Assembly (NCBI GenBank): GCA_049287305.1
Contig: JBAQFO010000012.1
Coordinates: 89,768 to 153,767, forward strand
Reading direction: 5' to 3'
DNA length: 64,000 bases
Origin: Minisyncoccia bacterium
GTDB taxonomy: Bacteria; Patescibacteriota; Minisyncoccia; Phycocordibacterales; UBA9973
Position numbers and translations under genes: made by a program. The notes beneath the pieces are model-generated. The model was given only the letters and a program-made list of their open reading frames with translations. It searched no databases and was not told where the DNA came from. Shown here one piece after another: positions 28,545-45,635 of this stretch (positions are counted from its first letter, which is position 1; each line of letters opens with the position of its first letter).

Positions 28545-28547
28545 TTT

Positions 28548-29450
28548 ATGGAAAAAATAATTGTAACAGGTGGAGCGGGGTTTATAGGTTCACATATTGT
28601 AGATGCTCTTATTGAGGAAGGATACGAAGTGCATGTCGTAGACAATATGTCAGCTGGGAGAAAAGAAAATATAAACCCAAAAGCAGTTTTACATATAGTA
28701 GATATAAGAGAAAAAGAAAAGCTGATCCCGATATTTACAAATGCAAAATATGTATTTCATGAAGCAGCATTTCCGCAAGTTCAGTATTCCATAGAGAATC
28801 CCGTTGAAACTAACGCGATTAACGTAGAAGGTACTTTAAATATTTTAGAGGTTTCTAGGATAAATAAGGTTAAGAGGGTAATTTTTGCTTCTTCTTCTGC
28901 TGTATATGGTGACCAAGATATATTACCCATAACCGAAAGCATGGAAGCGAGTCCACTTTCTCCATATGGCGCACAGAAATACATAGGTGAAGTTTATATG
29001 AAACTTTATGCGCAGATTTATGGAGTAGAGACTATCTCTCTTCGGTATTTTAATGTGTATGGACCTAGGCAGAGCGCAAGTGGTGCCTACGCGTCGGCGA
29101 TTCCTAAATTTATAGAATTTCGGCAGAAGAACGAACCACTTTCTATCACCGGAGACGGCGAACAGACTAGAGATTTTGTAAATGTTAAAGATATAGTTTC
29201 TGCCAACATTTTGGCCATGAAAGGGGATAAGGTAGGAAAAGGGGAAGTGTTAAATATCGGAGGAAATAATCAATACTCTATCAATTACATTGCAAAACTG
29301 GTGGGAGGAGAAGTTTCTTATATTCCTCCTCGAATAGAACCTAGAAATACCCAAGCAGGAATATCAAAGGCTAAGGAGTTCTTAAATTGGGAACCACGTG
29401 TTGTCCTGGAGGAAGGCATAGAAGAATTAAAGAAGTATAACAATATTTAA
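28548..29450 (+). CDS. NAD-dependent sugar epimerase/dehydratase (UDP-hexose 4-epimerase-like)
   Basis: VTGGAGFIGSH Rossmann motif and extended SDR features. Confidence 0.8.
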   Translation: MEKIIVTGGAGFIGSHIVDALIEEGYEVHVVDNMSAGRKENINPKAVLHIVDIREKEKLIPIFTNAKYVFHEAAFPQVQYSIENPVETNAINVEGTLNILEVSRINKVKRVIFASSSAVYGDQDILPITESMEASPLSPYGAQKYIGEVYMKLYAQIYGVETISLRYFNVYGPRQSASGAYASAIPKFIEFRQKNEPLSITGDGEQTRDFVNVKDIVSANILAMKGDKVGKGEVLNIGGNNQYSINYIAKLVGGEVSYIPPRIEPRNTQAGISKAKEFLNWEPRVVLEEGIEELKKYNNI

Positions 29451-29456
29451 CATGTC

Positions 29457-29734
29457 TCCCGTTAGAGATCACTTATGTTTTATTACACATATACTTTAAA
29501 AAGTAAGAAAGATGGCAAAATTTATACAGGATATACGCAAGACCTACGGAAGCGCCCGAGTGAGCATAATAAAGGTTTATCTACATATACTAAAGGACGA
29601 GGCCCATTTATTTTGATATACTACGAAGGGTGCTTATTAAAAGATAAAGCTAGGTCGAGAGAATTATATTTAAAATCAGGAATGGGCAAGCGTTATCTAA
29701 AAAATAGATTAGGCGCTTCCTACCTCTAACGGGA
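29457..29734. repeat. perfect 11-bp inverted repeats TCCCGTTAGAG (29457-29467) and CTCTAACGGGA (29724-29734) bracketing GIY-YIG copy 1
   Basis: Read from the sequence. The right repeat overlaps the GIY-YIG stop and the gmd ATG. Confidence 0.7.
29475..29729 (+). CDS. small stand-alone GIY-YIG nuclease-superfamily protein (YhbQ/UPF0213-like), copy 1
   Basis: [28 protein letters not shown]...ELYLK, with GIY-YIG-like YTGYT and a conserved Arg and Glu. About 85 aa. Paralogous to copies 2 and 3. Confidence 0.75.
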
Positions 29735-30795
29735 TGAAAGATAAAAAAAGGGCTTTAATTATAGGTATTACAGGGCAGGATGGGTCATATTTGGCTGAAT
29801 TTTTGCTAGAAAAAGGCTACGAGGTTCATGGAATGATAAGGCGTTCTTCCAGCTTCAACACCGAAAGATTGGACAAAATATATGAAGATCCGCACGTGGA
29901 CAATCGTCATCTAGTTCTTCATTATGGAGATCTGTCTGATTCCAACAGTATAAATAATATGGTTAATAAAAGTAAACCGGACGAGATTTATAACTTGGGT
30001 GCGCAGAGTCACGTAAGAGTAAGTTTTGATATTCCCGAATATACTGCTGACATAGATGCGCTTGGAACATTACGATTGCTAGATGTTATAAAGGAACAAA
30101 GTTATCCAATAAAATTTTATCAAGCGGGGTCAAGTGAAATGTTTGGGAAAGTTTTAGAGACTCCGCAAAAAGAAACAACGCCATTCAACCCCCAGAGTCC
30201 CTATGGTTGTGCCAAAGTATTTTCGCATATGATTTGCGTGAATTATCGCGAGGCTTATAATATGTTTATTTGCAATGGTATACTTTTTAACCATGAATCT
30301 CCGAGGAGGGGGCGGACTTTTGTTACTAAAAAGGTGGTGGAAGGTCTCGCAGATATAAAACTAGGGAAAAAAGAAAAAATATTTTTGGGAAACCTAGATG
30401 CCAAACGGGATTGGGGTTATGCCAAGGACTATGTGCGGGCTATGTGGCTGATGCTCCAGCAAGATACTCCTGATGATTACGTGATAGCAACAGGAGAGAC
30501 ACATTCCGTCCGTGAGTTCGTGGAATATGCGGCATCTTTGGTTGGTTATAAAATTGTTTGGCAAGGGTCAGGATTGGAAGAAGTTGGTATAGATGAAAAA
30601 TCAGGAAAAGTCCTCATCAGTATAGATGAAAATTATTACAGGCCGTCGGAAGTAGATGTATTGTTGGGAGACAATACAAAAGCAAAAGAGAAATTAAACT
30701 GGGATACCAATGTAAAATTTAAAGACCTTATAGATTTAATGGTAAAAGAAGAATTTGAAGAGCGGGGACTTCCCAGTAAAGATTATATAAAATAA
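29734..30795 (+). CDS. gmd: GDP-mannose 4,6-dehydratase
   Basis: [27 protein letters not shown] and Gmd-specific motifs. Confidence 0.92.
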
Positions 30796-30797
30796 TT

Positions 30798-31730
30798 ATG
30801 AACAAAGATGCAAAAATATATATTGCGGGGCATAATGGGCTAGTTGGTTCTGCTATTGTGCGGGAATTGCAAAAGAACGGCTACTCAAATCTTTTAACAA
30901 GAACTCGCGTGGAACTGGACCTGACTAGGCAAGATCTAGTAGAAGGGTTTTTTAACAAAGAGAAACCGGATTATGTTTTTCTGGCTGCGGCAAAAGTCGG
31001 GGGAATCCTAGCCAACGATACACATCCAGCAGATTTTATCAGAGATAACTTGATGATAGAAACGAATATTATAGACTCTGCTTATAAAAACAAAGTTAAG
31101 AAACTTTTATTTCTGGGGAGTTCTTGTATATATCCTAGAAATGCTCCTCAGCCGATGAAAGAAGAATACCTACTAACAGGCGAGCTTGAACCTACCAACA
31201 AGGCTTATGCTACAGGGAAAATAGCTGGTATAGTCATGTGTCAGGCTTACAACAAGCAGTATGGGGCAAATTTTATAAGTGTAATGCCGACCAATCTGTA
31301 TGGCGAGGGTGACAATTTTGACTTGGATAATTCGCATGTACTTCCGGCAATGATAAGAAAGTTCAATGATGCTAAGAAAAATAATGCACCGGAAGTAACT
31401 TTATGGGGGAGTGGTAGCCCGAAAAGAGAATTTCTATATGTAGATGATTTAGCCAATGCTTGCGTATATCTCATGAATAATTATAATAATTCTGAAATAT
31501 TAAACATCGGCACCGGAGAAGATTTATCCATTCTAGAATTAGCTAATTTAGTAAAAGAAGTTGTAGGATATGAAGGGAGTATTGTGTGGGATTCATCAAA
31601 GCCGGACGGCACCCCTCGCAAGTTGCTTGATGTGTCTAAAATACGCTCTTTAGGCTGGAAACACAGCACTAGCCTGAAAGAGGGTATAAAACACACTTAC
31701 GAGTGGTATAAAGCTAACCAAAGCCTATAA
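30798..31730 (+). CDS. fcl: GDP-L-fucose synthase (GDP-4-keto-6-deoxymannose 3,5-epimerase/4-reductase)
   Basis: [14 protein letters not shown] pattern; adjacent to gmd. Confidence 0.9.
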
Positions 31731-31731
31731 A

Positions 31732-32577
31732 ATGATAACTGTAAGATTAAAAGGGGGTTTGGGTAATCAGATGTTTCAATATGCCTTAGGGCGTGCTTTG
31801 TCTATTAAAAATAACACAACTCTCGGACTAGATATCGGTTTTTATGATATGAATCTAAACCCTAAGAGGCAATACGACCTGGAGGTGTTTAATATTGCCG
31901 GAAAAGTTCTGGAGCAGAAAGAAATTCCTTTTTTATACAGATTTTGTCATAAAAGCAAAATTTTGGATAAAATTACAAGATATGGATTTAAAGAAAAATC
32001 TTTTGATTTTGATCCGCAGATTTTTTGTCGTGGATCAAGCTTATACATAGATGGATACTGGCAAAGTCCGAAATACTTTGAAGATTTTGAGGATGAAATT
32101 AGAAAAGATTTTACTTTAAAAAACCCACCAGTTCAAAACATAGAAGACCTTGCGAAAGAAATAGAGCATATAAATTCGGTGTGCGTTCATGTGCGCAGAG
32201 GGGATTATGTAGGAAATAAAAATCATGAAATTGTAGATAATGAATATTATATAAAAGGCATTGAGTATATAAAAAATCATGCGTCAGTAGATAAAATATA
32301 TGTTTTTTCTGATGACATAGAATGGTGTAAAAATAGTTTAAAATTTGAATTTTCTACGGTATTTGTGGATAGCGTATACGCAGGAGAAAAAGGAGAAGGG
32401 CATATGTTTTTAATGAGTAAGTGTAAAAATTTTATAATTGCGAACAGCTCCTTTTCTTGGTGGGCTGCTTGGCTTTCTAACAATAAAGAGAAAATTGTAA
32501 TTTGTCCCAAACAATGGTTTCCTGATAAATCTATATACACAAACGATTTAATACCAAAAGAGTGGGTAAGAATATGA
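31732..32577 (+). CDS. alpha-1,2-fucosyltransferase (GT11 family)
   Basis: GT11 motifs GGLGNQMFQYA, HVRRGDY and ANSSFSWWAAW. Confidence 0.8.
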   Translation: MITVRLKGGLGNQMFQYALGRALSIKNNTTLGLDIGFYDMNLNPKRQYDLEVFNIAGKVLEQKEIPFLYRFCHKSKILDKITRYGFKEKSFDFDPQIFCRGSSLYIDGYWQSPKYFEDFEDEIRKDFTLKNPPVQNIEDLAKEIEHINSVCVHVRRGDYVGNKNHEIVDNEYYIKGIEYIKNHASVDKIYVFSDDIEWCKNSLKFEFSTVFVDSVYAGEKGEGHMFLMSKCKNFIIANSSFSWWAAWLSNNKEKIVICPKQWFPDKSIYTNDLIPKEWVRI

Positions 32578-32604
32578 ATCCCGTAGTAGATTTTTAATTA
32601 GATT

Positions 32605-32877
32605 ATGTTCTACACATATATATTACAAAGTCAGAAAAATAAAGAACTATATATTGGTTATACTTCAGATTTAAAAAGAAGAGTCGAAGAACATAATCAA
32701 GGGTTAAATTTTTCTACAAAAAGATATATTCCATGGAATATCATATACTACGAAGCGTGTATAGAAGAAAGTGATGCTAAGCGCAGAGAGAAATATCTGA
32801 AAACAACACAAGGGAATAGATTAATAAAGAGAAGGATAAAAGATTATATTTATAAGTTGAAAAATTTAACAAATTAA
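32605..32877 (+). CDS. small stand-alone GIY-YIG nuclease-superfamily protein, copy 2
   Basis: MFYTYILQSQKNKELYIGYTSDLKRRVEEHN. It is bracketed by the imperfect inverted repeat TCCCGTAGTAG (32579-32589) and CACTACAGG (32883-32891). Confidence 0.75.
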   Translation: MFYTYILQSQKNKELYIGYTSDLKRRVEEHNQGLNFSTKRYIPWNIIYYEACIEESDAKRREKYLKTTQGNRLIKRRIKDYIYKLKNLTN

Positions 32878-32891
32878 AAATTCACTACAGG

Positions 32892-34232
32892 ATGATAAAT
32901 ATAATCAATAAAATTAAAAGTTTAACACTCGAGCAGATAAACAAAAACCTAGTTTTTTTGGCTATTATCGCCTTAATTTACCGAAAAGGTAATTTTTACA
33001 ATACTTTTGTTCCAAAGCCATTTGAAATAATTCTCGTACTGATTATCATTCTTACATTTGTGCATTTACTAATCAATAAGAAATTTAAAGCTTTTTTCTC
33101 TTCAATTGATAAAAAAATTTGGATAGCATTGTCGTGCCTCCTGGTATCTGTTTTTGTGGGCTGGGCTGTAGCTGTATTTTTTAAGAATGTGCCGATAAAT
33201 TTCAATGTTATTTTAGAGTTTGGGAATTTTGTAATTTCTTTGGTGATATTTGTATTGGTTTTATTTTACACAAAAAATGATAAAATATTTGCCCAAAAAT
33301 ATTTATACGCATTACTTTTGCCGGCTGTATATACGATTTTTGTGTTATTCACCGAAGGGGCTAATTACTTTAACTTGGAAAACAACGGCACATTTCTTGG
33401 GCTTACAATCAATCCGAATATAATTTCTAAAATATTGCTTATTCCTGCGTTATTCTTTATAACGCATTCTTTGTTTAAACTTCAAAACAGGTGGCTGAGA
33501 ATTGGATATATTGCTATTTCTTGCGCTATGGTTGCTTTATTGTTTTGGGTTGCATCCAGGGGAGGATTGGTTTCTTTGGCGATTTCAATGATGTTCGTGT
33601 GGCTTGTTTTTTCTTTACATCATTTTAATTGGAAAAAACTATTTTATAGTGGTGGACTTCTCTTCATTATATTTTTAATTGGATTTCTTATAACTCCGCA
33701 AACTGGGAAGCAGAGGGTTATCCTTCGAGCTTTATACCCAAGTGGATCTGATTATTCTAGTTATGTCGAAGTTATAAATAAACCGGTTGACGATATTGTA
33801 TCTAAATTTATTACTGATAAGTCAGATAAGCATGTTTTTATTTATGCTAATGGAGAAAATCGTTTTAAAATTTGGCCATTTTATTTAAAGTACATATTGA
33901 TGAACCCACTTGGTATAGGGCCAAATACTCACTTGAGCTTTAGCTTAAAGGATAATGTTGGAGAATATATAAATTCAGGTCCACATAATACTTTCCTACA
34001 AATTTGGCTATGGGGAGGACTGCTAGGGATACTGAGTTTCTTATATATCTTTATCAATGCATTTAAAAACCTAAGATTACAATTAAAATCAGAATTTAAT
34101 CCTACTGCCTTGGCATTGCTTGGAGTTCTATTTGCTGTTAGTATTTCTGTCATGTTTGATGACAGCTTATCATTTTTTTGGTTTTTTATAATTTTAGCTT
34201 TGACATTGAGATATGAAAATACCAGTAGTTAG
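32892..34232 (+). CDS. O-antigen polymerase/ligase-like (Wzy family) membrane protein
   Basis: About 11 TM helices; the WVASRGGLVSLAISMMF pattern is typical of the Wzy_C region. Confidence 0.45.
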   Translation: MINIINKIKSLTLEQINKNLVFLAIIALIYRKGNFYNTFVPKPFEIILVLIIILTFVHLLINKKFKAFFSSIDKKIWIALSCLLVSVFVGWAVAVFFKNVPINFNVILEFGNFVISLVIFVLVLFYTKNDKIFAQKYLYALLLPAVYTIFVLFTEGANYFNLENNGTFLGLTINPNIISKILLIPALFFITHSLFKLQNRWLRIGYIAISCAMVALLFWVASRGGLVSLAISMMFVWLVFSLHHFNWKKLFYSGGLLFIIFLIGFLITPQTGKQRVILRALYPSGSDYSSYVEVINKPVDDIVSKFITDKSDKHVFIYANGENRFKIWPFYLKYILMNPLGIGPNTHLSFSLKDNVGEYINSGPHNTFLQIWLWGGLLGILSFLYIFINAFKNLRLQLKSEFNPTALALLGVLFAVSISVMFDDSLSFFWFFIILALTLRYENTSS

Positions 34233-35046
34233 CATAATTTTGCCTGTTTATAATGGTGCAGATCGCCTGAAAGAGACTGTAGCTAGTGTTATAAGCCAAT
34301 CTTACGCAGGCTGGGAGATGCTTGTCATAGATGACGGCTCTGCTGACAATACAAATGAGGCTGTTGGCGATTTTGTAAAAAAAGATTCCAGAGTAAAGTA
34401 CATAAGAAATGAAGTAAATTTGGGTATACAAAAAACCTTGAATAAAGGATTAAGAGAAGCAAAAGGTGAATATATTGCGCGCATAGACGATGACGATATC
34501 TGGATAGATAAAGATAAATTGAAAAGACAAGTAGAGTTTTTGGAAGATAACAAAGACTATGTTTTGTTGGGTACGGGTGCGGTAATTTTAGATGAAGAGG
34601 GGAAAGAGCTGACAAGATTTTTAATGCCCAAGAAGGATAGTGAAATAAGAAGTAAAATTTTGGGGCAAAATTGTTTTTTGCATTCTAGCGTAATGTTTAG
34701 AAAAAGTTTTGCCTTTAGGGTCGGAGGATATAATGAAACTGTTAATACGCTCCACATAGAAGATTATGATTTATGGCTGAAATTGGGGACAGTGGGTCAA
34801 TTTGCTAATCTTGATATTTATTCAGTCTCTTTAGCTCAGCGGAGAAGTACGATTTCGAATCGCCATAGAATAGCCCAAGCACGAAAATCTATTTTTGAAG
34901 TTTTAAGATTTAAAAACAAATACCCTAATTTTTTTAGGGGTTTTCTTGTAAGTATAATCAGGGGGTGCTTTTTCGTGGTTCAAAAAATCATTTCGCTAGA
35001 CGGAGTATTTGTATATAAAATTAAAAGAATATATAAAAATTTTTAG
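34213..35046 (+). CDS. family 2 glycosyltransferase
   Basis: VSIILPVYNGADRL...LVIDDGSADNT and a DDD motif. Confidence 0.88.
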   Translation: MKIPVVSIILPVYNGADRLKETVASVISQSYAGWEMLVIDDGSADNTNEAVGDFVKKDSRVKYIRNEVNLGIQKTLNKGLREAKGEYIARIDDDDIWIDKDKLKRQVEFLEDNKDYVLLGTGAVILDEEGKELTRFLMPKKDSEIRSKILGQNCFLHSSVMFRKSFAFRVGGYNETVNTLHIEDYDLWLKLGTVGQFANLDIYSVSLAQRRSTISNRHRIAQARKSIFEVLRFKNKYPNFFRGFLVSIIRGCFFVVQKIISLDGVFVYKIKRIYKNF

Positions 35047-35056
35047 ATAATCTTAT

Positions 35057-35878
35057 CTATTTACCTTCCAAGATTGATTTTTCTTCTTGGGAAAGTGGTT
35101 GATCATATAGAGATTTTTCTTGATGTGAAACCTGGATACTGTTCAATAATTTTCGTGGCCAATAAAATAATCGTGTTTGTTCATACCACCCGAAGTAAGG
35201 TCCGACGGATCCACCAAAATATACAGTAAACGTATTGATGCATACATCAGAAGGCATAAGGTTGTTGTAGCGTTTTTTTATACTAGAAGAAAATTGCTTA
35301 AGTGGTTCCTCAATATTATTAAAATGTTCTAAGATAAATTTTTTTCTCATAATAAAACCATCACCAAACGCGCGCATGTCATCGTATTTTGAATATACAA
35401 TTTTATTTTTTCTAAAAAAGTTTTTCAACCTTCGCTTGAGTCGTCCTCTCCAGTATCCTTCACCACCATTTAAATCGTATTTAAGATTTGTGATTGGTTT
35501 AAATACATGCACGTCATCCGCCAAGAGGATAATATAATCTTCTTTTATTTTTTGCGCAGCCTCATATATTCTTTTGACATATAGCTTTACTCCTGCTTCG
35601 TCAGAAAAATACACGCTGTGATTACTATTTGATTGAAAGCTGTGAGTGTAATTGCAATTAAAAAATCGGGCTACGTTCTCCATATTATCTCCATTATTAG
35701 AAACCAGCACCACTGTACTATTCGGGTATATTTTACGAAAATGTTGCAAAGCGTGAATAAGAGCCTTCGGTTGTTTGTAGCACTGATAAAAAGCACCAAT
35801 TGTAGGATTTTCTTTCTTTCTGATGGTTAGCATGTTCTGAATAAAATTCATTTTATTTGATTTTATCACACCTTGCAT
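35057..35878 (-). CDS. hypothetical protein (possible glycan-modifying enzyme); divergently oriented paralog of 35932..36801
   Basis: Shares AFYQC(Y/F)xQPK..., FNC(N/K)Y, (V/L)YFGG(S/T)(V/I)GPY and a C-terminal LSxEExxI(L/F)(E/L)GK with the neighbouring gene. Confidence 0.45.
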   Translation of the reverse strand: MQGVIKSNKMNFIQNMLTIRKKENPTIGAFYQCYKQPKALIHALQHFRKIYPNSTVVLVSNNGDNMENVARFFNCNYTHSFQSNSNHSVYFSDEAGVKLYVKRIYEAAQKIKEDYIILLADDVHVFKPITNLKYDLNGGEGYWRGRLKRRLKNFFRKNKIVYSKYDDMRAFGDGFIMRKKFILEHFNNIEEPLKQFSSSIKKRYNNLMPSDVCINTFTVYFGGSVGPYFGWYEQTRLFYWPRKLLNSIQVSHQEKSLYDQPLSQEEKSILEGK

Positions 35879-35931
35879 GGTATTGTAAATGTATGATTTT
35901 CTTAAGAAGAGCCTTTGGTAGGTTAAAGTTC

Positions 35932-36801
35932 ATGGGCAGATGTTATTTTTTAAGTTTTTTTGCTATTGTGGATTATTTTAAATCAAATCGGGTTTATAAC
36001 GAACCTTCTGTCTGCGCTTTCTATCAATGCTTTAATCAGCCCAAATGTGTTATTGCTACCATTAAATCATTTCGAGAATTTTATCCCAATAGTTCAGTTT
36101 ATTTGTTTAGCAACAAGGGACTTGATATGAGTCATATCGCCTCTCATTTCAATTGTAAGTATGAATATCTTTATAGTGGCAATGATTCCGGTTTCTGGTT
36201 CTTATCTAAAGAAGAAGTATTATCGTGGGTGAAAAGATTGTTGTTTGTCGCACAGAACTCCACAGAGGATTTCGTGATGATATTAGAAGACGACGCTAGG
36301 ATGTATGGAAAAATTAAAAAATTAAAATTTGATTTTAATGGTATCAAACCATGCGAACAACTCAGAGAAAAAATCACCGCCTTCTTAAAGCTTCAGAATA
36401 AATCTATTCCAAATTATATCAATAATATATATTATGGTGGTTGTGGAGGGACTCTAATTAATCGCAATTTTATAGTTAACAATTTTTCAAATCAAGAAAA
36501 ATTAAGCTCGGCTTTAGACGCAGTTCTTCCGTATGCACAAGAACATTTCGGAACACTACCGGCTGATGCCTTGATAACTATGCTTGTTCTGTATTTTGGC
36601 GGTACTATTGGGCCATATGCAGGTTTTGCAGAAGTTGGCAGTTCTGGTTTTATGGGCTTTATTGATAATTTCGTTGAAATGTCACATTGGAAGTACTACT
36701 TTAGTCCCTTTTTAGGTAGAATTGAGGTTGTTCATAACGACAAAAGTTTCTACAATGTTCTGTTATCCGAGGAAGAGAATAAAATATTTTTGGGAAAATA
36801 A
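35932..36801 (+). CDS. hypothetical protein; paralog of 35057..35878 (start placed at MGRCYFL to avoid head-to-head overlap)
   Basis: Same conserved blocks as its divergent neighbour. The track ORF from 35857 would overlap the divergent gene start. Confidence 0.45.
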   Translation: MGRCYFLSFFAIVDYFKSNRVYNEPSVCAFYQCFNQPKCVIATIKSFREFYPNSSVYLFSNKGLDMSHIASHFNCKYEYLYSGNDSGFWFLSKEEVLSWVKRLLFVAQNSTEDFVMILEDDARMYGKIKKLKFDFNGIKPCEQLREKITAFLKLQNKSIPNYINNIYYGGCGGTLINRNFIVNNFSNQEKLSSALDAVLPYAQEHFGTLPADALITMLVLYFGGTIGPYAGFAEVGSSGFMGFIDNFVEMSHWKYYFSPFLGRIEVVHNDKSFYNVLLSEEENKIFLGK

Positions 36802-36805
36802 AGTT

Positions 36806-37861
36806 TTATTGCATAAACAATGTGCTATATTTTTCTCTGTTGTCTAGAATATATTTCGGTAGTTCTGATTCATCTTTCCAAAATTTAATATGTCTTCCGC
36901 GAATATCCTTATTTCCCAAGATTGTTGCTTCTATTTTTAGTTTTATGTCTTTGGTATTAATTTCTTGATGACTGTATGATTCAAGTTTTTGTTTAACCAT
37001 ATTAGATCCACCCTGAAATGAAAAATGCCATCCACCATCTCTAAGCATCGTGAATCTGTTTTTATTTGGAGTTCTGATGTGATTGATTGAATTATTTTTA
37101 ATATTTTTATATTTTGTAGCTATGGTCCCCACCCATCCTCTCCAATTTTCATTTGAGCGATTATTGAGATGATATATGTATGCAGTTTGTTTTAATTTAA
37201 AAATATCATTTCTGGAATAATCTATTGTTATCTCTGGATTCCAGATTTCATCCAAATCTGATATAAAACAAATATCATCATCTTTTAATCCTGTCAGCAC
37301 TCTTTGCATAGTTTCTTTTTGATAAAACTCCCTTAACCACTGTAATTGTTTTTTGTCCGGGACATTATCGGTCGATAAAGTAAAGTTTAGTATTTCTTTA
37401 TCTGTAGTGCTTAAATTTTTATTTAAAAGTCGATTTCGGATATCGGCCTCATTTTTAGGTGTATCCCTTACTGCATAGTGAATTATTTTATGTTCCCATT
37501 TTTTAAAAAGGTGCTTGTTTTCTTCAAAATATAATTGTTTAGGTAAGCCAGTAAATGTTTCTGTGGCTTCAACAATCACAAAATAATCTACGTATTGATC
37601 TAGAATATTCAATCGTATTTCTAAAAGCTCCAATTCGTTAAAAAAAAGAAAAACATCATAAATTTTTATATTTTTTCTATAAATCTTTATATCTTCTTTG
37701 GATAACCACAGTTTCTCTCTTCTAGACTCTTCTAGAATAAGGAATGGCTCTTTTAGATAATCAATAAAATTTCTTAGATCATTGAGAAAAAATTTGGCTA
37801 TATTTTTTAGTGATAAGGGAATACGTTTTTTTATTTTTGTTACAATTCTTTCAAAAATCAT
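36806..37861 (-). CDS. putative glycosyltransferase (GT17-like, MGAT3-type fold); low confidence
   Basis: DVFLFFNELELLEIRLNILDQYVDYFVIVEATETFTG resembles the N-terminal signature of the Glyco_transf_17 family. Confidence 0.4.
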   Translation of the reverse strand: MIFERIVTKIKKRIPLSLKNIAKFFLNDLRNFIDYLKEPFLILEESRREKLWLSKEDIKIYRKNIKIYDVFLFFNELELLEIRLNILDQYVDYFVIVEATETFTGLPKQLYFEENKHLFKKWEHKIIHYAVRDTPKNEADIRNRLLNKNLSTTDKEILNFTLSTDNVPDKKQLQWLREFYQKETMQRVLTGLKDDDICFISDLDEIWNPEITIDYSRNDIFKLKQTAYIYHLNNRSNENWRGWVGTIATKYKNIKNNSINHIRTPNKNRFTMLRDGGWHFSFQGGSNMVKQKLESYSHQEINTKDIKLKIEATILGNKDIRGRHIKFWKDESELPKYILDNREKYSTLFMQ

Positions 37862-37864
37862 AAG

Positions 37865-38890
37865 CTAGTTTTGAGACAAAAAATTTTTAATTCTATTGGG
37901 TATCAGTCTAGATATTTTTTTATATAGCAATCTCGGAATATTTCTGTTAGTTTTGTATGATTTCAATAAATATATATTTTCCTTATCATGGGAAGATAAA
38001 AAATAATTTTTATGACTTGTCTTGTATTCATTAAATTCTTTTAGGCACATTGGATAATCACTTAGTTTTCCATTTCTATCCTGATACATCCAATTCGCTG
38101 TGATATTGTATCCACAGCTCCAATAACCATCTGATACATTGTGACGAGCCCAGTATTTCGGGGCTATGCAGTATTTAAGGTTTTCTGAAAGCCAAGCCGG
38201 GAACCAGGCGAAACTAGAGTTAGATAGAATTAAATAATGTGCATTTTTTATAACCACGTAGTCCTTAGCAATACTAAAATGAAAAACGTCATAATTGGGG
38301 AAGAATTTCTTTGCTTCAAACGTGTCGTCAGTAATAACGACAAATTTAAAGTTTTGGTTTACTTGGAGCATATTGTTCACAGCATCTTCCCAGTATTTCT
38401 TGCTTAAGTATATATCTTTATGTCGTGCATATTCTCCACCCCTAAAATTAATGACACAAGTATTATCATTAGCATAATCATTACATTCATATTCTGTTTT
38501 AACCTTTAGCCATTCTTTTATTTCGTTTTTCCTATGTTCAAAATATTTTTCATCCTGCATCATACCGTCAATCTTGGTGTTCGGATAAACACTTACTAGA
38601 TCTTTATCATAAAGTCTTATATCGGAACCATTAACCGGGTGATTAATTTCTTTTTCTTGATAGTAGTATTCAATACCCTCTGGTAATTTTGTAGGAGGGC
38701 CACCTTCAGGACCAGAGCCACCTATAACCCTTTTTCCATAATCTAAATTTAAAAAATCAGCACCCTTAAATTTTTCTGGATGCATTATTCCAAAATCATA
38801 TCCTAAGTCTTTCGCTATGACCCTAGTGGCGACATAGCAGGCGAGTTGATTGCCCAATCCCTGTCCTTTATAAAATTCTGTTATAATCAT
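37865..38890 (-). CDS. second GT11-type fucosyltransferase
   Basis: GQGLGNQLACY, FRGGEYARH and ILSNSSFAWFPAW parallel the three GT11 motifs of 31732..32577. Confidence 0.65.
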   Translation of the reverse strand: MIITEFYKGQGLGNQLACYVATRVIAKDLGYDFGIMHPEKFKGADFLNLDYGKRVIGGSGPEGGPPTKLPEGIEYYYQEKEINHPVNGSDIRLYDKDLVSVYPNTKIDGMMQDEKYFEHRKNEIKEWLKVKTEYECNDYANDNTCVINFRGGEYARHKDIYLSKKYWEDAVNNMLQVNQNFKFVVITDDTFEAKKFFPNYDVFHFSIAKDYVVIKNAHYLILSNSSFAWFPAWLSENLKYCIAPKYWARHNVSDGYWSCGYNITANWMYQDRNGKLSDYPMCLKEFNEYKTSHKNYFLSSHDKENIYLLKSYKTNRNIPRLLYKKISRLIPNRIKNFLSQN

Positions 38891-38899
38891 ATTTTCTTT

Positions 38900-39652
38900 T
38901 TACCACCATTTAAATAGTTTCGATATAATATTTTTGTGGTCCTGATTTGTTGCGTATTTATTTTTAACGTATTTATATTCTGTTCTTTTAATGAAGCGAT
39001 TTAAATGATTGGTTGTTTGGTATTTTCCTATACCTATGACAACATTTATTTTGTTTAAAATTGTTGGTTCACCATATTTTTCATAAAGTCTTCTATAATA
39101 GTCGCAATCTAGTAACCAAGTAAGATTTTCATCAAAGAAGATAAGGTCTTCGTTTTTAATTGTAAGTACTGACGGTGATCCTATTGTATTTTTACCCATA
39201 TAGATTTTATCATTATAAGTAGGGAAATGGAGGTTTATTATCTTTCCGTCACCCTCATCATGCCCGCACCCAGTAACCAGCCAGTTCCCTTTGAAGTTGT
39301 CTACGATATCCTGCAGAGAGTTTTCACTAGCTAAATAATCATCCAAGTATAATATCTTTATTAATTCACCACTTGCTTTCTTGACGGCCTCGTTTGTATT
39401 TTGCGATATTCCCTTTTTTACGGTTTTGTTGTTCTTGGTATATTTAATATCCAAAGATCTATATTTTTCATTTTCACAAATATTTTTTATTACATCATCC
39501 TCGGAATTATCCGTTATGACAACTTCAAAGTCTTTAAATGTTTGTCCAAGAAGTACATTGAGATTATTGGGTAGAAAACTACTAGCCATACCATGCATTT
39601 CGTAGGTGGGGATACAGATACTAACTTTTTTTGTTTTATTGTTTGTATTCAC
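38900..39652 (-). CDS. family 2 glycosyltransferase
   Basis: VSICIPTYEM...VVITDNSED and a DD motif. Confidence 0.8.
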   Translation of the reverse strand: MNTNNKTKKVSICIPTYEMHGMASSFLPNNLNVLLGQTFKDFEVVITDNSEDDVIKNICENEKYRSLDIKYTKNNKTVKKGISQNTNEAVKKASGELIKILYLDDYLASENSLQDIVDNFKGNWLVTGCGHDEGDGKIINLHFPTYNDKIYMGKNTIGSPSVLTIKNEDLIFFDENLTWLLDCDYYRRLYEKYGEPTILNKINVVIGIGKYQTTNHLNRFIKRTEYKYVKNKYATNQDHKNIISKLFKWW

Positions 39653-39653
39653 G

Positions 39654-40538
39654 CTACTTATAGGTTTTTTTAATTCCTTCTTCTAAAGTAATACTTGGTT
39701 TCCATCCTGGGATTACCTTTCCATTGTTCCAAGGATTCATGTTTTCACGTTCTCTGTATGTTTTTTTGCCCCAGCGGATGTTTAATGTTCTACCTGTTAT
39801 TTTTTCAAAAAGGTGAGCAAGCTTTTTTAACGACATTCTTTTGGGTGATTTTACAACATAAGATTTTCCCGAAAACTTTCTTTGCTTATCTGTTGATAAC
39901 AACATAATCATTTGTAAAAAAGCGCTAACCACGTTTTCTACATGAGTTATATCAAGGATCTGTTTACCAGGAGACATGTCCAGGACTTCACCAGATCTAC
40001 TTATTTTATCCCAAACATTCAAGAGCTTTGGTCTTGAATCGTTTGGGCCAAAAGTATCATTCAATTTTATGGTTACAAAATTTATATTTGAACTTTCTGC
40101 GTAATATTTTGCTATATCTTCAAAGGCTTGTTTGGTGGCACTATATAGGTTGATCGGGGAGTAATCTTTGCCTCGGTAATGTTGCCAGAAAGTACCAGTA
40201 TTTATGAACCATTTTACGTTACCTCTGACCGAAGCTTCTAAGACCAAAGAACCAAGATAGACGTTTGAGTCAATTAAATTTTTTACGTCTTCTGGGTTGT
40301 GTTGTGTCAAAAACAAAGAAGCCAAATGGATAACCCCATCGATTTTTTCGTTTTGCATAAACGAAATAAAATTTTCAATATTTTTGTCTAAAACGTGATA
40401 TTTTATATTTTCCTTGATTAAAAAGTCTTTGTTGGTAGATGGTCTTACTAAGGCGTATAAAATATAACCTCTTTTTTTAGCTTTCTTGATCAAATTTTTT
40501 CCTACAAATCCTGTTGCTCCTGTTATGAGTATTTTCAT
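39654..40538 (-). CDS. NAD(P)-dependent sugar-nucleotide reductase/epimerase (RfbJ/RmlD-like 4-reductase)
   Basis: MKILITGATGFVGKNL. About 290 aa, adjacent to the CDP-sugar genes. Confidence 0.6.
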   Translation of the reverse strand: MKILITGATGFVGKNLIKKAKKRGYILYALVRPSTNKDFLIKENIKYHVLDKNIENFISFMQNEKIDGVIHLASLFLTQHNPEDVKNLIDSNVYLGSLVLEASVRGNVKWFINTGTFWQHYRGKDYSPINLYSATKQAFEDIAKYYAESSNINFVTIKLNDTFGPNDSRPKLLNVWDKISRSGEVLDMSPGKQILDITHVENVVSAFLQMIMLLSTDKQRKFSGKSYVVKSPKRMSLKKLAHLFEKITGRTLNIRWGKKTYRERENMNPWNNGKVIPGWKPSITLEEGIKKTYK

Positions 40539-40544
40539 AGTATA

Positions 40545-41111
40545 TTATTTACTTTCATTAAGCATAAAAGGGGAGTCAAACTCACTTAAATTTTGTAGCT
40601 CTTGATCTCGTTTTGAAACTATTGGATTTGCAACTCGCCAGTCCATACCGAAAGAATTAAAGTGGATGCCGTCTTCATTTTTTTCTGATCTTGCTTTTTC
40701 TTGTAGATATATGACACAAGAATTGTCTTCTAGGGACAGAAATCCATGCGCGCACCCCTTGGGCATGTAAATTATTTTGTGATTTTTTTTGGACAATTCT
40801 AAGGAAGAACATTGACCATATGTCGGAGAATTTTTTCGCAGATCTATTACTACGTCTAAGATAGATCCATGAGTGACATATACAAGCTTGGCATGATCTG
40901 ATTCATTTTTCTGGAAGTGCATGCCCCTAATTACGTTCTTGTTTGATATAGAATAATAATTCTCTTCAAAGCTTGAAATCAGTCCATTTTTTATAAAAAA
41001 ATCTTTATTGAAAGATTTTACAAGAGAACCTCGATCATCTTCAAAGGTGTCGGGTTCTATGATATATACTCCGGATAATTTTGTGTCTACGATTTTCATA
41101 TTTTTGTCCAA
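40545..41111 (-). CDS. NDP-4-keto-6-deoxyhexose 3,5-epimerase (RmlC-like cupin)
   Basis: RmlC fold motifs (IIEPDTFEDDRGSLVKSF, HGFL). Confidence 0.75.
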   Translation of the reverse strand: MDKNMKIVDTKLSGVYIIEPDTFEDDRGSLVKSFNKDFFIKNGLISSFEENYYSISNKNVIRGMHFQKNESDHAKLVYVTHGSILDVVIDLRKNSPTYGQCSSLELSKKNHKIIYMPKGCAHGFLSLEDNSCVIYLQEKARSEKNEDGIHFNSFGMDWRVANPIVSKRDQELQNLSEFDSPFMLNESK

Positions 41112-42196
41112 TCAATATTTAACCTCTTTGCATTTTCTATGTAATCTTTCAAATCTTTTTCGCTTAAAACAATATTATTTTCATAATAACTTTTATACCA
41201 ATTAATTGTTTTTGATATTGTGTCTTCGTATTCCCATACACTCTGCCATTTTAATAACGAACGTGCTTTTGAGGAATCTAATTTTAAAATATTTGCTTCA
41301 TGTAAATTATCAGCATTTGTTTTTAAATCAATTTTTATTGCACCCCAGTATTTTTGAGCATGTTCAATGATTTTTTTTACTGATAGTATAGATTCTTCCT
41401 TGGGTCCAAAGTTCCAATTGTCAGCATATTCTTTTTCCCCATTCAATAGTTTTGCTCCGAGAGATAAATACCCACTAATCGGTTCTAGAACGTGTTGCCA
41501 TGGGCGTACTGAGTCAGGATTTCGAATCACGGACCCATTACCTGCTACTGTTGATTTTATTATATCTGGGATGAGTCTATCTTGCGCCCAGTCTCCGCCA
41601 CCTATAACATTACCTGCTCGCACATTAGCTAGAAGGGTAGTGTGAGTCTTGCCATATTCGTCTAGAGAAAAGAATGATTTTCTGTATGAATTTGAAACTA
41701 TTTCAGCTGCACCCTTGGAAGCACTATAAGGATCATTTCCCCCCATCGGGTCGCCTTCAGTGTATGGCTTCCCGTCTTCTTTATTCTCATAACACTTATC
41801 GCTAGTAATATTTACTATAACTTTTACAGTTTTTAATTTCCTACAACTTTCTAAGATATTTATCGTTCCAAGTATGTTTGTCTCAAATGTTTCTGCAGGA
41901 ATGGTATAAGATCTTCTGACTAGTGCTTGAGCGGCCATATGAAAAATTATTTCGGGATTGTGCTCTTTGATTATTTCAAAAAGTTTATTTTTGTCTAATA
42001 CATCCCCTTTTACGGAAGTCATTTTCAAGTTTAATAATTCAAAATGATTAGGCTCTGAGGGGATATCTATCGAATAACCTATAACCTCTGCTCCAAGCTT
42101 AGTAAGCCAGAGAGCGAGCCAAGAACCTTTAAACCCAGTATGCCCGGTTATTAAAACTTTCTTTCCTTTGTAAATATTATTAAAGAGATTATCCAT
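41096..42196 (-). CDS. rfbG: CDP-glucose 4,6-dehydratase
   Basis: KKVLITGHTGFKGSWLALWL and YSASK active-site residues. Confidence 0.85.
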   Translation of the reverse strand: MDNLFNNIYKGKKVLITGHTGFKGSWLALWLTKLGAEVIGYSIDIPSEPNHFELLNLKMTSVKGDVLDKNKLFEIIKEHNPEIIFHMAAQALVRRSYTIPAETFETNILGTINILESCRKLKTVKVIVNITSDKCYENKEDGKPYTEGDPMGGNDPYSASKGAAEIVSNSYRKSFFSLDEYGKTHTTLLANVRAGNVIGGGDWAQDRLIPDIIKSTVAGNGSVIRNPDSVRPWQHVLEPISGYLSLGAKLLNGEKEYADNWNFGPKEESILSVKKIIEHAQKYWGAIKIDLKTNADNLHEANILKLDSSKARSLLKWQSVWEYEDTISKTINWYKSYYENNIVLSEKDLKDYIENAKRLNIDWTKI

Positions 42197-42914
42197 TTTT
42201 TTTATCCCCCAAATTTTTCCAGAAAGCCTTACCTTCTGCCCATATTTTATTTAAATGTTTTAGATCTCTTTCTGTGTCCACACATTCCCAATCACCTAAA
42301 TGTTTGTAAACCATAATTTGTCCTTGTTCCGCCAATTTATCAAAAGCCCCGTACTCTAAATCGCAATTTTCGTCTTCCGTTAGGTGTTCTAACAGTTTCT
42401 TATTAAATACAATAAAACCTCCCGAGATAAGTCCGGAAGAAGCTTGTGGTTTTTCTTTAAATGAAAGCAGTTTACCATCTTTTTCAATTAATTCTCCAAA
42501 TCGAGATGGTGGGCGAACTCCAGTTATTGTTAACATATTTCCGTGAGCTTTATGGAATTTCACAAGTTCATGTATGTTAATATTCGCTACTCCGTCTCCG
42601 TAGGTCAACATGTGAGTATCATCATCCTGCAAATATTTTTCTAGTCTTTTTAATCTACCCCCCTTTAGGGTGTTTAGCCCTGTATCAACTAAGGTAACAT
42701 TCCAGCCATGACTAGTATCTTTGAAATGTTCTTCAATGACCCCTTTTTTATATCCAAGTGCTAGGATAAAATCTTTGTATCCATGATCTGCATATATTTT
42801 CATGATATGTTTTATGATTGGTTCATCGCCAATACGTACCATGGGTTTTGGCATATCACTAGTAATACTTCCCAAACGCGTACCATATCCTCCAGCTAAA
42901 ATAATGACTTTCAT
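42189..42914 (-). CDS. rfbF: glucose-1-phosphate cytidylyltransferase
   Basis: MKVIILAGGYGTRLGSITSDMPKPMV. Confidence 0.85.
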   Translation of the reverse strand: MKVIILAGGYGTRLGSITSDMPKPMVRIGDEPIIKHIMKIYADHGYKDFILALGYKKGVIEEHFKDTSHGWNVTLVDTGLNTLKGGRLKRLEKYLQDDDTHMLTYGDGVANINIHELVKFHKAHGNMLTITGVRPPSRFGELIEKDGKLLSFKEKPQASSGLISGGFIVFNKKLLEHLTEDENCDLEYGAFDKLAEQGQIMVYKHLGDWECVDTERDLKHLNKIWAEGKAFWKNLGDKKNG

Positions 42915-42924
42915 GCGAATATAT

Positions 42925-44142
42925 TTATTTATATTTTGATAAAAATTCTACAAATTTTTCTTTTAAGTATTTTAACTGTTCTTTTTTTAGGCCATGATGT
43001 GAGGCAACCACGAAAGCATTTGCCATTATATTTTCTGTATTTGGATATGTTTTTTGAGCTAAACGGTGTGGGATTTTTTCATATCCTGGTTGTTTTAAAA
43101 TATTGCCAGTGAATACTGGACGAGTTTGTATGTTGTTGTTTTCTAGAAAAGTTATTAATTCTAGGCGAGTAAATGGTGCATCTTTATTGATTATGAAAGG
43201 GAAGGCCAGCCAGATGGTTTCTGTATTTGGAGTTTGATTAGATAGAGTGAAATATTTGGTGTGTTGGCTGAAAAATTTATATAAATCAGCGAAATTTTCT
43301 TTGCGAGCCTTGGCAAATTTTGGAAGTTTTTTTAGTTGCTCTAAAGCGAAAGCAGAGGAGAGCTCGAGTGGCAAGAAATTGTATCCAATTTCACTAAATA
43401 TAAATTTGTTATCATAAGGTATTCCGGAAAGTTTACTTTTAAATCTATTTGTTAAAAGTTCTGAATTTGCTTTTTCTCCAAATAGAGATGACTGTCTTCC
43501 CCAGCCACGCAAAACTACTAATTGATCAACCCATTTTTTGTCATTTACACAGACCATTCCGCCACCTCCGGCGCCATTGATAATATGCGAGCCGTAAAAG
43601 CTGGTAGTGGTGATGTGGGAATATTTTCCTGTTGGATTGTTTTTATATTTACCTCCAAGAGTATCACAAGAATCTTCGATGAAATATAAATTATGTTTCT
43701 TGGCAATTTTGGCTAATCTTTCTAGGTCTGGAATATTGCCCATCAGTGAGGGAATCATCAAGGCTTTTGTTTTCTTTGTTATTGATTTTTCTAATTGATA
43801 AATATTAATCAAAAATGTGTTTGGATCTACATCTATAAAAACAGGAACTAAACCTTTTTGAACTATTGGAGCTACTGTCGTTGCAAATGTAAGTATCGGG
43901 GTGATGACCTCGCTCCCTTTGGGTAAATTTAAAATTTCAAAAGCAAGGAGATTTGCAGAAGATCCAGAATTTACCATAACTCCATATTTTTTACCAAAAA
44001 GTTTTGCTATTTTTGATTCGAATTCCTTTGTTTTATCACCTAAGGCGGTGTTACCCTCTAGAATTTTTACAACCGCATTGATCTCTTCTTTTCCATGAAC
44101 AGAAAATCCATAGGGAACTCGGATATTATTTTTTTTCATCAA
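42925..44142 (-). CDS. rfbH: DegT/DnrJ/EryC1-family enzyme, CDP-4-keto-6-deoxyglucose 3-dehydrase (E1)-like
   Basis: The SFYGSHII segment has His where aminotransferases carry the PLP-binding Lys, as in E1 dehydrases. Confidence 0.65.
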   Translation of the reverse strand: MMKKNNIRVPYGFSVHGKEEINAVVKILEGNTALGDKTKEFESKIAKLFGKKYGVMVNSGSSANLLAFEILNLPKGSEVITPILTFATTVAPIVQKGLVPVFIDVDPNTFLINIYQLEKSITKKTKALMIPSLMGNIPDLERLAKIAKKHNLYFIEDSCDTLGGKYKNNPTGKYSHITTTSFYGSHIINGAGGGGMVCVNDKKWVDQLVVLRGWGRQSSLFGEKANSELLTNRFKSKLSGIPYDNKFIFSEIGYNFLPLELSSAFALEQLKKLPKFAKARKENFADLYKFFSQHTKYFTLSNQTPNTETIWLAFPFIINKDAPFTRLELITFLENNNIQTRPVFTGNILKQPGYEKIPHRLAQKTYPNTENIMANAFVVASHHGLKKEQLKYLKEKFVEFLSKYK

Positions 44143-44355
44143 AATTTATAGGCTTTAATATTATTAAAAAATTACTTTACTTGAGATAAATTTAACATAA
44201 ATTAAGTCAATAATCAATGACATAAAAAGTGTCTTATAAGTAAGTGTAAATGGACCGATCAGCTTAGAAGCTGGCTCGGTCCATTTTAGGCGTCCTCACT
44301 AGCGTAGTGGACATCACGGCTGGATTATCCTCTCGTCTTGATTTTCTAGCTAATG

Positions 44356-45629: not shown

Positions 45630-45635
45630 ACGTGA

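What the first reader, a model, noticed from the sequence alone, without database searches (positions are those of the whole stretch)
35057..36801. Head-to-head pair of paralogous unknown-function genes inside the glycan locus
Two genes of about 270-290 aa are transcribed divergently, with starts about 50 bp apart. They share several conserved blocks (AFYQCxxQPK, YPNSxVxLxSN, FNCxY, ILxDDxxxxxKI, YFGGxxGPY and a C-terminal SxEExxI..GK). This is an inverted duplication of a probable glycan-modifying enzyme, for example a GT-A-like transferase or an acyl or methyl transferase, with no obvious family assignment.
Basis: seen in the sequence. Interest (0 to 1): 0.5.

Follow-up and report, generated by a model that had tools for sequence, protein, structure and literature searches.

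The report
Divergent pair of uncatalogued GT-A glycosyltransferases
Two back-to-back genes in the surface-sugar gene cluster of an uncultured ultra-small (CPR) bacterium encode distantly related members of a glycosyltransferase family that no protein-family database lists yet; this is an ordinary kind of enzyme in a new, rare family.

Summary
Gene A (35057-35851, minus strand, 264 aa) and gene B (35893-36801, plus strand, 302 aa) are divergent paralogues: 32% identity, BLASTP E=6e-45. Their start codons are 41 bp apart.

A profile search finds 657 representative clusters, mostly from metagenomes. Seventeen of 57 multidomain members carry an N-terminal GT11 fucosyltransferase domain.

The source is a Minisyncoccia MAG. 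The surrounding locus is a Wzx/Wzy-type glycan cluster with GDP-fucose, dTDP-rhamnose and CDP-dideoxyhexose pathways.

The head-to-head A/B arrangement and its about 40-48 bp spacer recur in at least five related assemblies. The spacer carries two overlapping promoter-like blocks.

An "inverted duplication" origin is not shown. No DNA similarity remains, and the sister relationship has 18% bootstrap support.

Best reading: two metal-dependent sugar transferases catalysing different steps of repeat-unit assembly. This is a new family of a known kind, of modest interest.

The parts
35057..35851 (-). Gene A: a 264-aa GT-A-fold protein with no N-terminal helix. Motifs in 264-aa numbering: AFYQC 20-24; SN52-N-G54; LLA111-D112-D113; G-loop G-DG ~163-165; D202; H243-x-x-K246-x-x-Y249. 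The ORF extends to an upstream ATG at 35878.
   Evidence: ORF list. A 100%-identical NCBI protein of 264 aa, WAV15_03005. N-terminus conserved as MNFIQN / MQFIHK / MESIQK in orthologues. AF2 model pLDDT 84.5, pTM 0.83. GT-A fold hits. Motifs.
35893..36801 (+). Gene B: a 302-aa GT-A-fold paralogue with a predicted N-terminal basic/aromatic helix (residues 2-30). Motifs: AFYQC; SN-K-G; ILE132-D133-D134; GGCGG; D225; H281-x-x-K284. The mechanical ORF starts at TTG 35857. An alternative ATG lies at 35932.
   Evidence: ORF list. A 100%-identical NCBI protein of 302 aa, WAV15_03010. The family HMM aligns from profile position 2, one codon after ATG 35893. The MIFLRR / MNFLR start is conserved. AF2 model pLDDT 92.5, pTM 0.91. 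GT-A hits.
35852..35892 (.). 41-bp divergent spacer with two conserved blocks. Read towards A it gives TTTACA-N18-(TGa)TAAAAT. Read towards B it gives TTGATT-N18-(TGg)TATTGT. Each block would act as the -35 of one promoter and the -10 of the other. Both ATGs lie 6-8 nt after a -10-like hexamer, so the mRNAs would be leaderless or nearly so (inference).
   Evidence: The consensus scan finds the A-directed site at 35889-35860 with 10/12 matches and an upstream TG. The count of such sites in the region is not above shuffles. The blocks are conserved in window, L004, L016 and L018. Spacer identity is 0.68-0.75, against 0.49-0.58 at third codon positions of gene A. The B-directed hexamers were read directly from the sequence.
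36806..41111 (-). Conserved gene block that travels with B: GT17-like (36806-37861), weak GT11-like (37865-38890), GT2 (38900-39652), an SDR reductase/epimerase (39654-40538) and an RmlC-like 3,5-epimerase (40545-41111).
   Evidence: Pfam and NCBIfam. The same order is seen in L016 and L018. Homologues of the three GTs are also present in loci with an unpaired B.
26610..49909 (.). Surrounding Wzx/Wzy-type glycan locus (context only). It contains two Wzy_C proteins, gmd, fcl, GT11, GT2, A, B, CDP-glucose 4,6-dehydratase, a cytidylyltransferase, an RfbH-like protein, RmlA/B/C, a Wzx-type flippase and a Bac_transf initiating transferase. GC is 0.30-0.36, against 0.42-0.46 in the flanks.

Best explanation
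A and B are two anciently diverged paralogues of an uncatalogued family of GT-A-fold, divalent-metal-dependent, nucleotide-sugar-dependent glycosyltransferases.

Proposed mechanism (inferred):
- The [E/A]-D-D motif after beta4 and the C-terminal His hold Mn2+/Mg2+ and the donor diphosphate.
- Lys246 helps bind the diphosphate.
- The Gly-rich loop covers the donor sugar.
- The invariant Asp at the start of the following helix (A D202, B D225) deprotonates the acceptor hydroxyl. The reaction would then most likely invert the anomeric configuration (about 55-60% inverting against retaining).

Each protein adds one, different, sugar to the lipid-linked repeat unit. That unit is started by the Bac_transf enzyme, flipped by Wzx and polymerised or ligated by the Wzy_C proteins of the same locus.

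The family works next to alpha-1,2-fucosyltransferase-type (GT11) enzymes, to which it is often fused elsewhere.

The two genes are expressed from a conserved 41-bp divergent control region.

Shown: paralogy, fold, motif conservation, locus context, conservation of the pair and spacer, and GT11 fusions. Inferred: catalytic roles of the residues, stereochemistry, substrates and promoter function.
For: - Paralogy: E=6e-45.
- Fold, model B: the same list of structures.
- Motifs across 187 family sequences: D113 100%, D112 94%, E111 94%, G165 99%, D202 99%, H243 94%, K246 92%.
- These positions match the GT-A core elements DxD, G-loop, xED-Asp at the start of helix alphaF, and C-His, as defined in PMC7185993.
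- DSSP places D202 and D225 at helix starts, and H243 and H281 in a C-terminal strand.
- hhalign puts the family's D52-x-G54 on the DDGS motif of the neighbouring GT2. The register is sensible but the probability is low.
- Sub-threshold Pfam hits of members are to GT2 (9/89) and HPAT (6/89).
- Fusion partners are almost all glycan enzymes: GT11 in 17/57, always N-terminal; also GT4, GT2, GT6, GT25, GT47, Wzy_C and methyltransferases.
- Every related locus is a glycan cluster except L001.
- The pair and spacer are conserved in window, L001, L004/L006, L016, L017 and L018.
Against: - No member has been characterised.
- No profile hit reaches any curated threshold.
- The PDB matches share 8-15% identity and mix inverting (GT31, GT2) and retaining (GT8, GT6) enzymes. 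Stereochemistry and substrates therefore remain open.
- The motif-to-function mapping rests on sequence position and predicted secondary structure.
- A-type proteins replace the first acidic residue of the DxD (E111A) and alter the G-loop.
- Both A and its paired B carry Asn instead of the family's usual Asp52.
- The promoter reading rests on consensus matches, whose count in the region is not above shuffles, in a phylum whose promoters are not characterised.
Confidence: 0.75

Rival explanations
1. A is a catalytically weakened partner of B. The two would form an obligate heterocomplex in which B, with its N-terminal helix, provides membrane attachment and the main activity, while A acts as scaffold or specificity subunit. 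Known GT-A precedents are CHSY/CHPF, EXT1/EXT2 and C1GalT1/Cosmc.
For: - A lacks the N-terminal helix that B has.
- All A-clade members have Ala for the 94%-conserved Glu111 and a shortened G-DG loop in place of GGxGG.
- In every A-type locus with flanks except L009, A is head-to-head with B.
- In L001 the pair persists away from other recognisable glycan genes.
- PMC7185993 describes Cosmc as a GT31 pseudoenzyme chaperone.
Against: - A keeps D112, D113, G165, D202, H243, K246 and Y249. Cosmc has lost both DxD and xED.
- A occurs without B in L009.
- No A-B fusion protein was seen among the 150 best representatives.
- No complex prediction could be run.
Confidence: 0.12
2. The family is not a Leloir glycosyltransferase. 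It would instead be a GT-A-like sugar-phosphate (Stealth/CpsY-type hexose-1-phosphate) transferase or a nucleotidyltransferase.
For: - The top Foldseek hit is CpsY 8j2n (E 2.4e-6).
- One fused relative shows a sub-threshold Stealth_CR2 hit in its partner domain.
- The weak profile hit of the wide alignment in PDB is to a putative cytidylyltransferase (E 0.16).
Against: - No Stealth CR1-CR4 or NTP_transferase Pfam hit falls on any of 89 members.
- The DxD plus G-loop plus xED-Asp plus C-His combination is the GT-A glycosyltransferase signature.
- The locus already has dedicated nucleotidyltransferases.
Confidence: 0.08
3. The enzymes are retaining, GT8/GT6-like glycosyltransferases rather than inverting ones.
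For: - GT6 and GT8 dominate the Foldseek list.
- The conserved His-x-x-Lys resembles the GT8 C-His plus phosphate-binding Lys (KPW) feature described in PMC7185993.
- GT6 enzymes act on Fuc-alpha-1,2-Gal made by GT11, and this family is frequently fused to GT11.
Against: - The helix-start Asp (D202) is 99% conserved. That is typical of inverting GT-A families and variable in most retaining ones.
- The GT8 motif HxxGxxKPW is not reproduced. The family has HxxKxxY.
- No Pfam GT8 or GT6 hit falls on the domain.
Confidence: 0.35

Closest known systems
GT31 family (Fringe, C1GalT1, B3GalT5/6, N-terminal domain of chondroitin synthases)
   Different: Only 8-15% identity. No Pfam Fringe or Galactosyl_T hit even at E<=1 among 89 members. 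The family has its own N-terminal YQCxKxPK and FRxxYP motifs and a HxxKxxY C-terminus.
GT8 family (LgtC, glycogenin)
   Different: The GT8 HxxGxxKPW motif is absent. No PF01501 hit falls on the domain. The strictly conserved helix-start Asp points rather to an inverting mechanism.
GT2 family (SpsA-like, including the neighbouring window gene 34213-35046)
   Same: GT-A fold. Sub-threshold PF00535 hits occur in 9 of 89 members. The D-x-G motif aligns with the DDGS motif.
   Different: Never reaches the Pfam gathering score (best E 6.8e-4). hhalign probability is 0.4%.
GT6 family (ABO transferases, alpha3GalT, BoGT6a)
   Same: Top Foldseek matches (E about 4e-6, TM 0.44-0.51). Both are functionally linked to GT11 fucosyltransferases.
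Pfam DUF6492 (PF20102) and HPAT (PF23452)
   Same: These are the only other Pfam families with repeated weak hits on members (2/89 and 6/89). DUF6492 also occurs as a fusion partner (P0141, P0155).
   Different: All hits on the domain itself are sub-threshold. The family HMM does not significantly match the DUF6492 domain of P0141 (i-Evalue 5).

Membership tests
GT-A fold glycosyltransferase superfamily | Single Rossmann-like alpha/beta/alpha domain with a central mixed sheet, superposable on solved GT-A enzymes | tested here: met
GT-A fold glycosyltransferase superfamily | DxD-type acidic motif directly after beta4 | tested here: met
   L-[E/A]-D-D follows strand 106-110 in A and 127-131 in B. 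D113 is invariant and D112 is 94% conserved in 187 sequences.
GT-A fold glycosyltransferase superfamily | G-loop, xED-Asp at the start of helix alphaF, and C-terminal His (PMC7185993) | tested here: inconclusive
   Candidate residues are conserved: G165 99%, D202 99%, H243 94%. They lie in the expected order and secondary-structure positions. Residue-level superposition on a solved GT-A could not be done.
GT2 (PF00535) | Profile score at or above the Pfam gathering score | tested here: not met
   There is no hit for A or B at E<=10, apart from a Glyco_tranf_2_3 hit at E 0.3 for A. The best among 89 members is E 6.8e-4, below the cut-off.
GT31 (Fringe / Galactosyl_T) | Profile match to the Pfam GT31 models | tested here: not met
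   No such family appears among hits at E<=1 for 89 members. There is only structural similarity.
GT8 (PF01501) | Profile match and the HxxGxxKPW motif | tested here: not met
   No PF01501 hit falls on the domain. The weak GT8 hits in P0057 and P0061 lie in the partner regions. The motif here is HxxKxxY.
Stealth (CpsY-type) sugar-phosphate transferases | Conserved regions CR1-CR4 (Pfam Stealth_CR1-4) | tested here: not met
CAZy GT families created after the Pfam copy, or lacking Pfam models | Sequence membership by the CAZy/dbCAN family models | not testable with these tools
   No CAZy or dbCAN library is available. AlphaFold DB fold libraries were not installed.
Wzx/Wzy-dependent glycan assembly locus (context) | Initiating phosphoglycosyl transferase, Wzx-type flippase and Wzy-type polymerase/ligase in one cluster with GTs and NDP-sugar genes | tested here: met
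   Bac_transf at 48605-49909, Polysacc_synt/MurJ-like at 47151-48602, and Wzy_C at 26610-28544 and 32892-34232. The cluster also has GT2, GT11 and GT17-like genes plus gmd/fcl, rmlABC and the CDP-glucose dehydratase.

The most novel reading that the evidence does not exclude
The A/B pair is a co-evolved two-enzyme module of a new glycosyltransferase family that uses an unusual donor. Both partners have replaced the base-contacting Asp of the D-x-G motif by Asn. This change is seen in the A clade and in the B subclade to which the paired B genes belong, although one such B (L007/L008) is unpaired and one paired B (P0042) keeps Asp. A-type genes sit next to a CDP-3,6-dideoxyhexose pathway (RfbF/G/H) in the two loci where the view is complete. 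A, and perhaps B, would then be CDP-dideoxyhexosyl transferases. Their expression would be set by two fully overlapping, mutually exclusive divergent promoters that give leaderless mRNAs.
Probability: 0.12. Interest if true: 0.5.

Novelty: new member of a known kind. Interest (0 to 1): 0.3.

Why it matters
Surface glycans of CPR/Patescibacteria are essentially uncharacterised, yet these ultra-small episymbionts depend on cell-surface contact with hosts. This locus devotes about 23 kb to a glycan containing fucose, rhamnose and a dideoxyhexose, a large stretch for an organism of a group known for small genomes.

Two of its roughly eight transferases belong to a family of 657 representative clusters (50% identity level) that is invisible to Pfam, NCBIfam and PDB sequence searches. 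Defining the family would:
- improve annotation of metagenomic glycan loci;
- add a candidate new CAZy family;
- through the recurrent GT11 fusion, point to enzymes that act immediately before or after alpha-1,2-fucosylation, which could be useful for glycan synthesis.

It does not change any concept. It is one more GT-A family.

Tried and rejected
- **Sequence family searches.** Pfam, NCBIfam and PDB searches with single proteins and with profiles A1 and A2 gave no meaningful hit.
- **Fold libraries.** The AlphaFold-DB Foldseek library was not available.
- **hhalign.** Comparison of the family with the neighbouring GT2 gave probability 0.4%, with only a plausible local register.
- **DNA-level inverted repeat across the pair.** Only short chance matches were found, so a recent inverted duplication is rejected.
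- **NJ phylogeny with bootstrap.** A/B sisterhood is unresolved at 18%.
- **Names and organisms for distant members.** The sources give no function: only 'hypothetical protein' labels, plus one generic 'glycosyltransferase involved in cell wall biosynthesis' (P0067, a fusion protein).
- **GTDB genome scan.** With A1 the scan found only 7 CPR loci.
- **Plasmid and phage collections.** No plasmid hit was found, and one weak partial cyanophage hit.
- **L002 neighbour.** The 293-aa head-to-head neighbour of the distant A-like gene in L002 is not a family member.
- **DUF6492.** Tested as a possible parent family. The family HMM does not significantly match it.
- **Literature.** Searches for CPR glycan loci, DUF6492 and GT11 fusions found nothing describing this family.
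- **Acyl- or methyl-transferase reading.** Rejected, because there is no such fold or profile signal.

Full report
**1. Observation**

The ORF list shows two divergent ORFs at the stated coordinates: 35057-35878 on the minus strand and 35857-36801 on the plus strand. BLASTP of the two products gives 32% identity, 53% positives and E=6e-45 over essentially the whole length.

Start codons were refined by homology.
- The identical NCBI proteins are 264 aa (WAV15_03005) and 302 aa (WAV15_03010), from a MAG labelled Minisyncoccia bacterium.
- The N-termini MNFIQN (A) and MIFLRR (B) are conserved in orthologues.
- The family HMM aligns to B one codon after ATG 35893.

A is therefore 35057-35851 and B is 35893-36801, with a 41-bp spacer between the start codons.

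**2. Family assignment by sequence**

Neither protein matches Pfam, NCBIfam or any PDB chain at a meaningful level. Profiles of 34 and 89 family members do no better against PDB.

Word-indexed searches of 5.8 billion proteins find only 12 relatives of A and 31 of B. All lack Pfam domains, and those that carry a name are called hypothetical proteins; the organism labels are CPR, for example Candidatus Nomurabacteria.

An exhaustive HMMER profile search of 1.84 billion cluster representatives finds 657 proteins at E<=1e-3, 435 at E<=1e-10 and 103 at E<=1e-30. The family is real and moderately large, but it is essentially metagenomic.

In one genome per GTDB species, the core family was found in only 7 loci, all CPR MAGs.

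**3. Fold**

AlphaFold2 models built with family alignments are confident: A has pLDDT 84.5 and pTM 0.83, and B has pLDDT 92.5 and pTM 0.91.
- Foldseek against the PDB gives 172 hits at E<=1e-3. The list is led by CpsY, GT6 (ABO transferases, alpha3GalT), GT8 (glycogenin) and SpsA.

Both proteins therefore have a GT-A glycosyltransferase fold. No single CAZy family stands out, and identities are 8-15%.

**4. Active-site motifs**

Conservation was measured across 187 family sequences, using A numbering for the 264-aa protein.
- Y-Q-C at 22-24
- F-R-x-x-Y-P at 38-43
- D52-x-G54
- L-E111-D112-D113, with D113 invariant
- G163-G164-G165
- D202 (99%)
- H243-x-x-K246-x-x-Y249 (92-94%)

Taujale et al. 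(PMC7185993) define the GT-A common core as four elements: DxD, the G-loop, the xED-Asp at the beginning of helix alphaF (the catalytic base of inverting enzymes), and the metal-binding C-His.

The family has candidates for all four, in the right order. DSSP of the models puts the EDD directly after a strand, D202 (A) and D225 (B) at the first turn of a helix, and H243 and H281 in a C-terminal strand.

The Lys three residues after the His recalls the phosphate-binding Lys of the GT8 clade.

I could not superpose residues on a solved structure, so the mapping is an inference. The near-invariant helix-start Asp makes inversion somewhat more likely than retention.

**5. Context and guilt by association**

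The pair lies in a 23-kb low-GC cluster at 26.6-49.9 kb, with GC 0.30-0.36 against 0.42-0.46 in the flanks. The cluster contains:
- a Bac_transf initiating transferase;
- a Wzx-type flippase;
- two Wzy_C proteins;
- gmd and fcl (GDP-fucose);
- RmlA/B/C;
- a CDP-glucose 4,6-dehydratase that scores above the NCBIfam cut-off, together with a Glc-1-P cytidylyltransferase-like and an RfbH-like protein (a CDP-3,6-dideoxyhexose route);
- two GT2, one GT11, one weak GT11-like and one GT17-like transferase.

Among 57 multidomain family members, 17 carry a GT11 domain, always N-terminal to the family domain. Other partners are GT4, GT2, GT6, GT25, GT47, PLOD-GT, Wzy_C, methyltransferases, a sulfotransferase, DUF6492 and HtrL_YibB. 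These are the architectures of multi-step glycan-building enzymes. They tie the family to steps adjacent to alpha-1,2-fucosylation.

**6. The pair as a unit**

HMM scans of fetched loci show the same head-to-head A/B arrangement in L001, L004/L006, L016, L017 and L018.
- A occurs alone in L009.
- B occurs alone in L007/L008, L010-L012 and L015.
- L004/L006 carry a third member.
- B travels with a conserved GT2 / GT11-like / GT17-like module even when unpaired.
- A is accompanied by RfbF/G/H in the window and in L009.

The spacer is 40-48 bp in four loci. It is more conserved (0.68-0.75 identity) than third codon positions of gene A (0.49-0.58).

Its two conserved blocks read TTTACA-N18-TGaTAAAAT towards A, a site also found by the consensus scan. 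On the other strand they read TTGATT-N18-TGgTATTGT towards B. B's start codon lies exactly 6 nt after the -10-like hexamer in all four loci, and A's lies 7-15 nt after.

This suggests two fully overlapping divergent promoters producing leaderless or near-leaderless mRNAs. That is inference only.

**7. Origin of the pair**

No DNA-level inverted repeat links the genes. In a neighbour-joining analysis the A clade has 85% bootstrap support, A plus P0054 has 100% and the B clade has 99%. Their sister relationship has only 18%. 'Inverted duplication' is therefore neither supported nor excluded. If it happened, it is ancient.

**8. Differences between A and B**
- B has a confidently predicted N-terminal basic/aromatic helix (residues 2-30). 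It is probably a membrane-interface anchor. A lacks it.
- The A clade has Ala at Glu111 and a shortened G-DG loop.
- The A clade, its outgroup P0054 and the B subclade that contains the paired B genes (together with the unpaired L007/L008 gene P0020) have Asn at the otherwise 90% conserved Asp52.
- This position aligns with the DDGS motif of GT2.

These differences argue for distinct substrates. They leave room for a heterocomplex (rival 1) or an unusual donor nucleotide (the novel case).

**9. Verdict**

This is a correctly observed, conserved divergent pair of paralogous GT-A-fold glycosyltransferases. The family is absent from Pfam, NCBIfam and PDB sequence space. The pair sits in the surface-glycan locus of a CPR bacterium.

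It is a new family of a very well known kind of enzyme. Substrates and stereochemistry are unknown. Interest is modest.

Noticed in passing
window 2236-5808 (+): A 1190-aa class I aminoacyl-tRNA synthetase (tRNA-synt_1 + Anticodon_1 + DUF5915, IleRS-like) carries a histidine-phosphatase domain (His_Phos_1, E 1.2e-30). The domain is inserted at residues 524-678, between the two halves of the catalytic domain. This is an unusual architecture.
   Followed up: no
window 26000-50000: The whole glycan cluster has GC 0.30-0.36, against 0.42-0.46 in the flanks. Its right-hand neighbours (ribosomal protein L10, a mechanosensitive channel) are the same as next to the different glycan cluster of L007. 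This looks like a conserved genomic site holding a variable glycan cassette.
   Followed up: partly
window 36806-37861 and 37865-38890 (-): The GT17-like and weak GT11-like genes are separated by 3 nt here, and are also separate in L016 and L018. In L004/L006 they form one 666-aa protein carrying both a weak GT11 and a GT17 Pfam hit. L007 has a 655-aa protein with only the GT17 hit on record. This is a gene fusion/fission polymorphism.
   Followed up: partly
window 41096-44142 (-), with 39654-41111: A CDP-3,6-dideoxyhexose-type pathway. It comprises a CDP-glucose 4,6-dehydratase (475 bits, above cut-off), a Glc-1-P cytidylyltransferase-like protein and an RfbH-like protein, plus an RmlC-like epimerase and an SDR reductase. 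No E3/RfbI-type reductase was recognised. This pathway sits alongside the GDP-fucose and dTDP-rhamnose genes in one locus.
   Followed up: partly
window 35698 (A Asn52) and 36112 (B Asn74); loci L001, L004, L016-L018: The family's 90%-conserved Asp of the D-x-G motif is Asn in every A-clade protein and in a B subclade that contains the paired B genes seen in the fetched loci. Most unpaired B-types keep Asp. This is either a parallel change or co-evolution, and it is unexplained.
   Followed up: partly
window 26610-28544 and 32892-34232 (+): There are two Wzy_C-domain membrane proteins (644 and 446 aa) in one locus. One may be a polymerase and the other a ligase or O-oligosaccharyltransferase. 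A distant family member (P0044, 715 aa) is itself fused to a Wzy_C domain.
   Followed up: no
window 24339-26321 and 54700-62358 (+): Four large proteins (660-909 aa) have no Pfam match at E<=1e-5 other than a PG_binding_1 peptidoglycan-binding domain. Three of them are in tandem.
   Followed up: no
L004 3432-4337 / L006 11620-12525: A third family member (B-type, with Asp52) lies in the same locus as an A/B pair. P0018 and P0022, two B-types, both have a 9255-bp longest contig and so probably lie on the same contig. Multiple paralogues per locus therefore seem to recur.
   Followed up: partly
phage record MT408532.1 166532-166771: A weak partial tblastn match (32.5% identity over 28% of the query, E 8e-6) links family member P0200 to a hypothetical protein of Synechococcus phage SynMITS9220M01.
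   Followed up: no
L002 5105-5986 (-): The distant A-like gene P0010 is also head-to-head with a 293-aa protein without a Pfam domain. That protein contains IILEDD but is not a family member by BLASTP. It may be another uncatalogued GT-A.
   Followed up: partly
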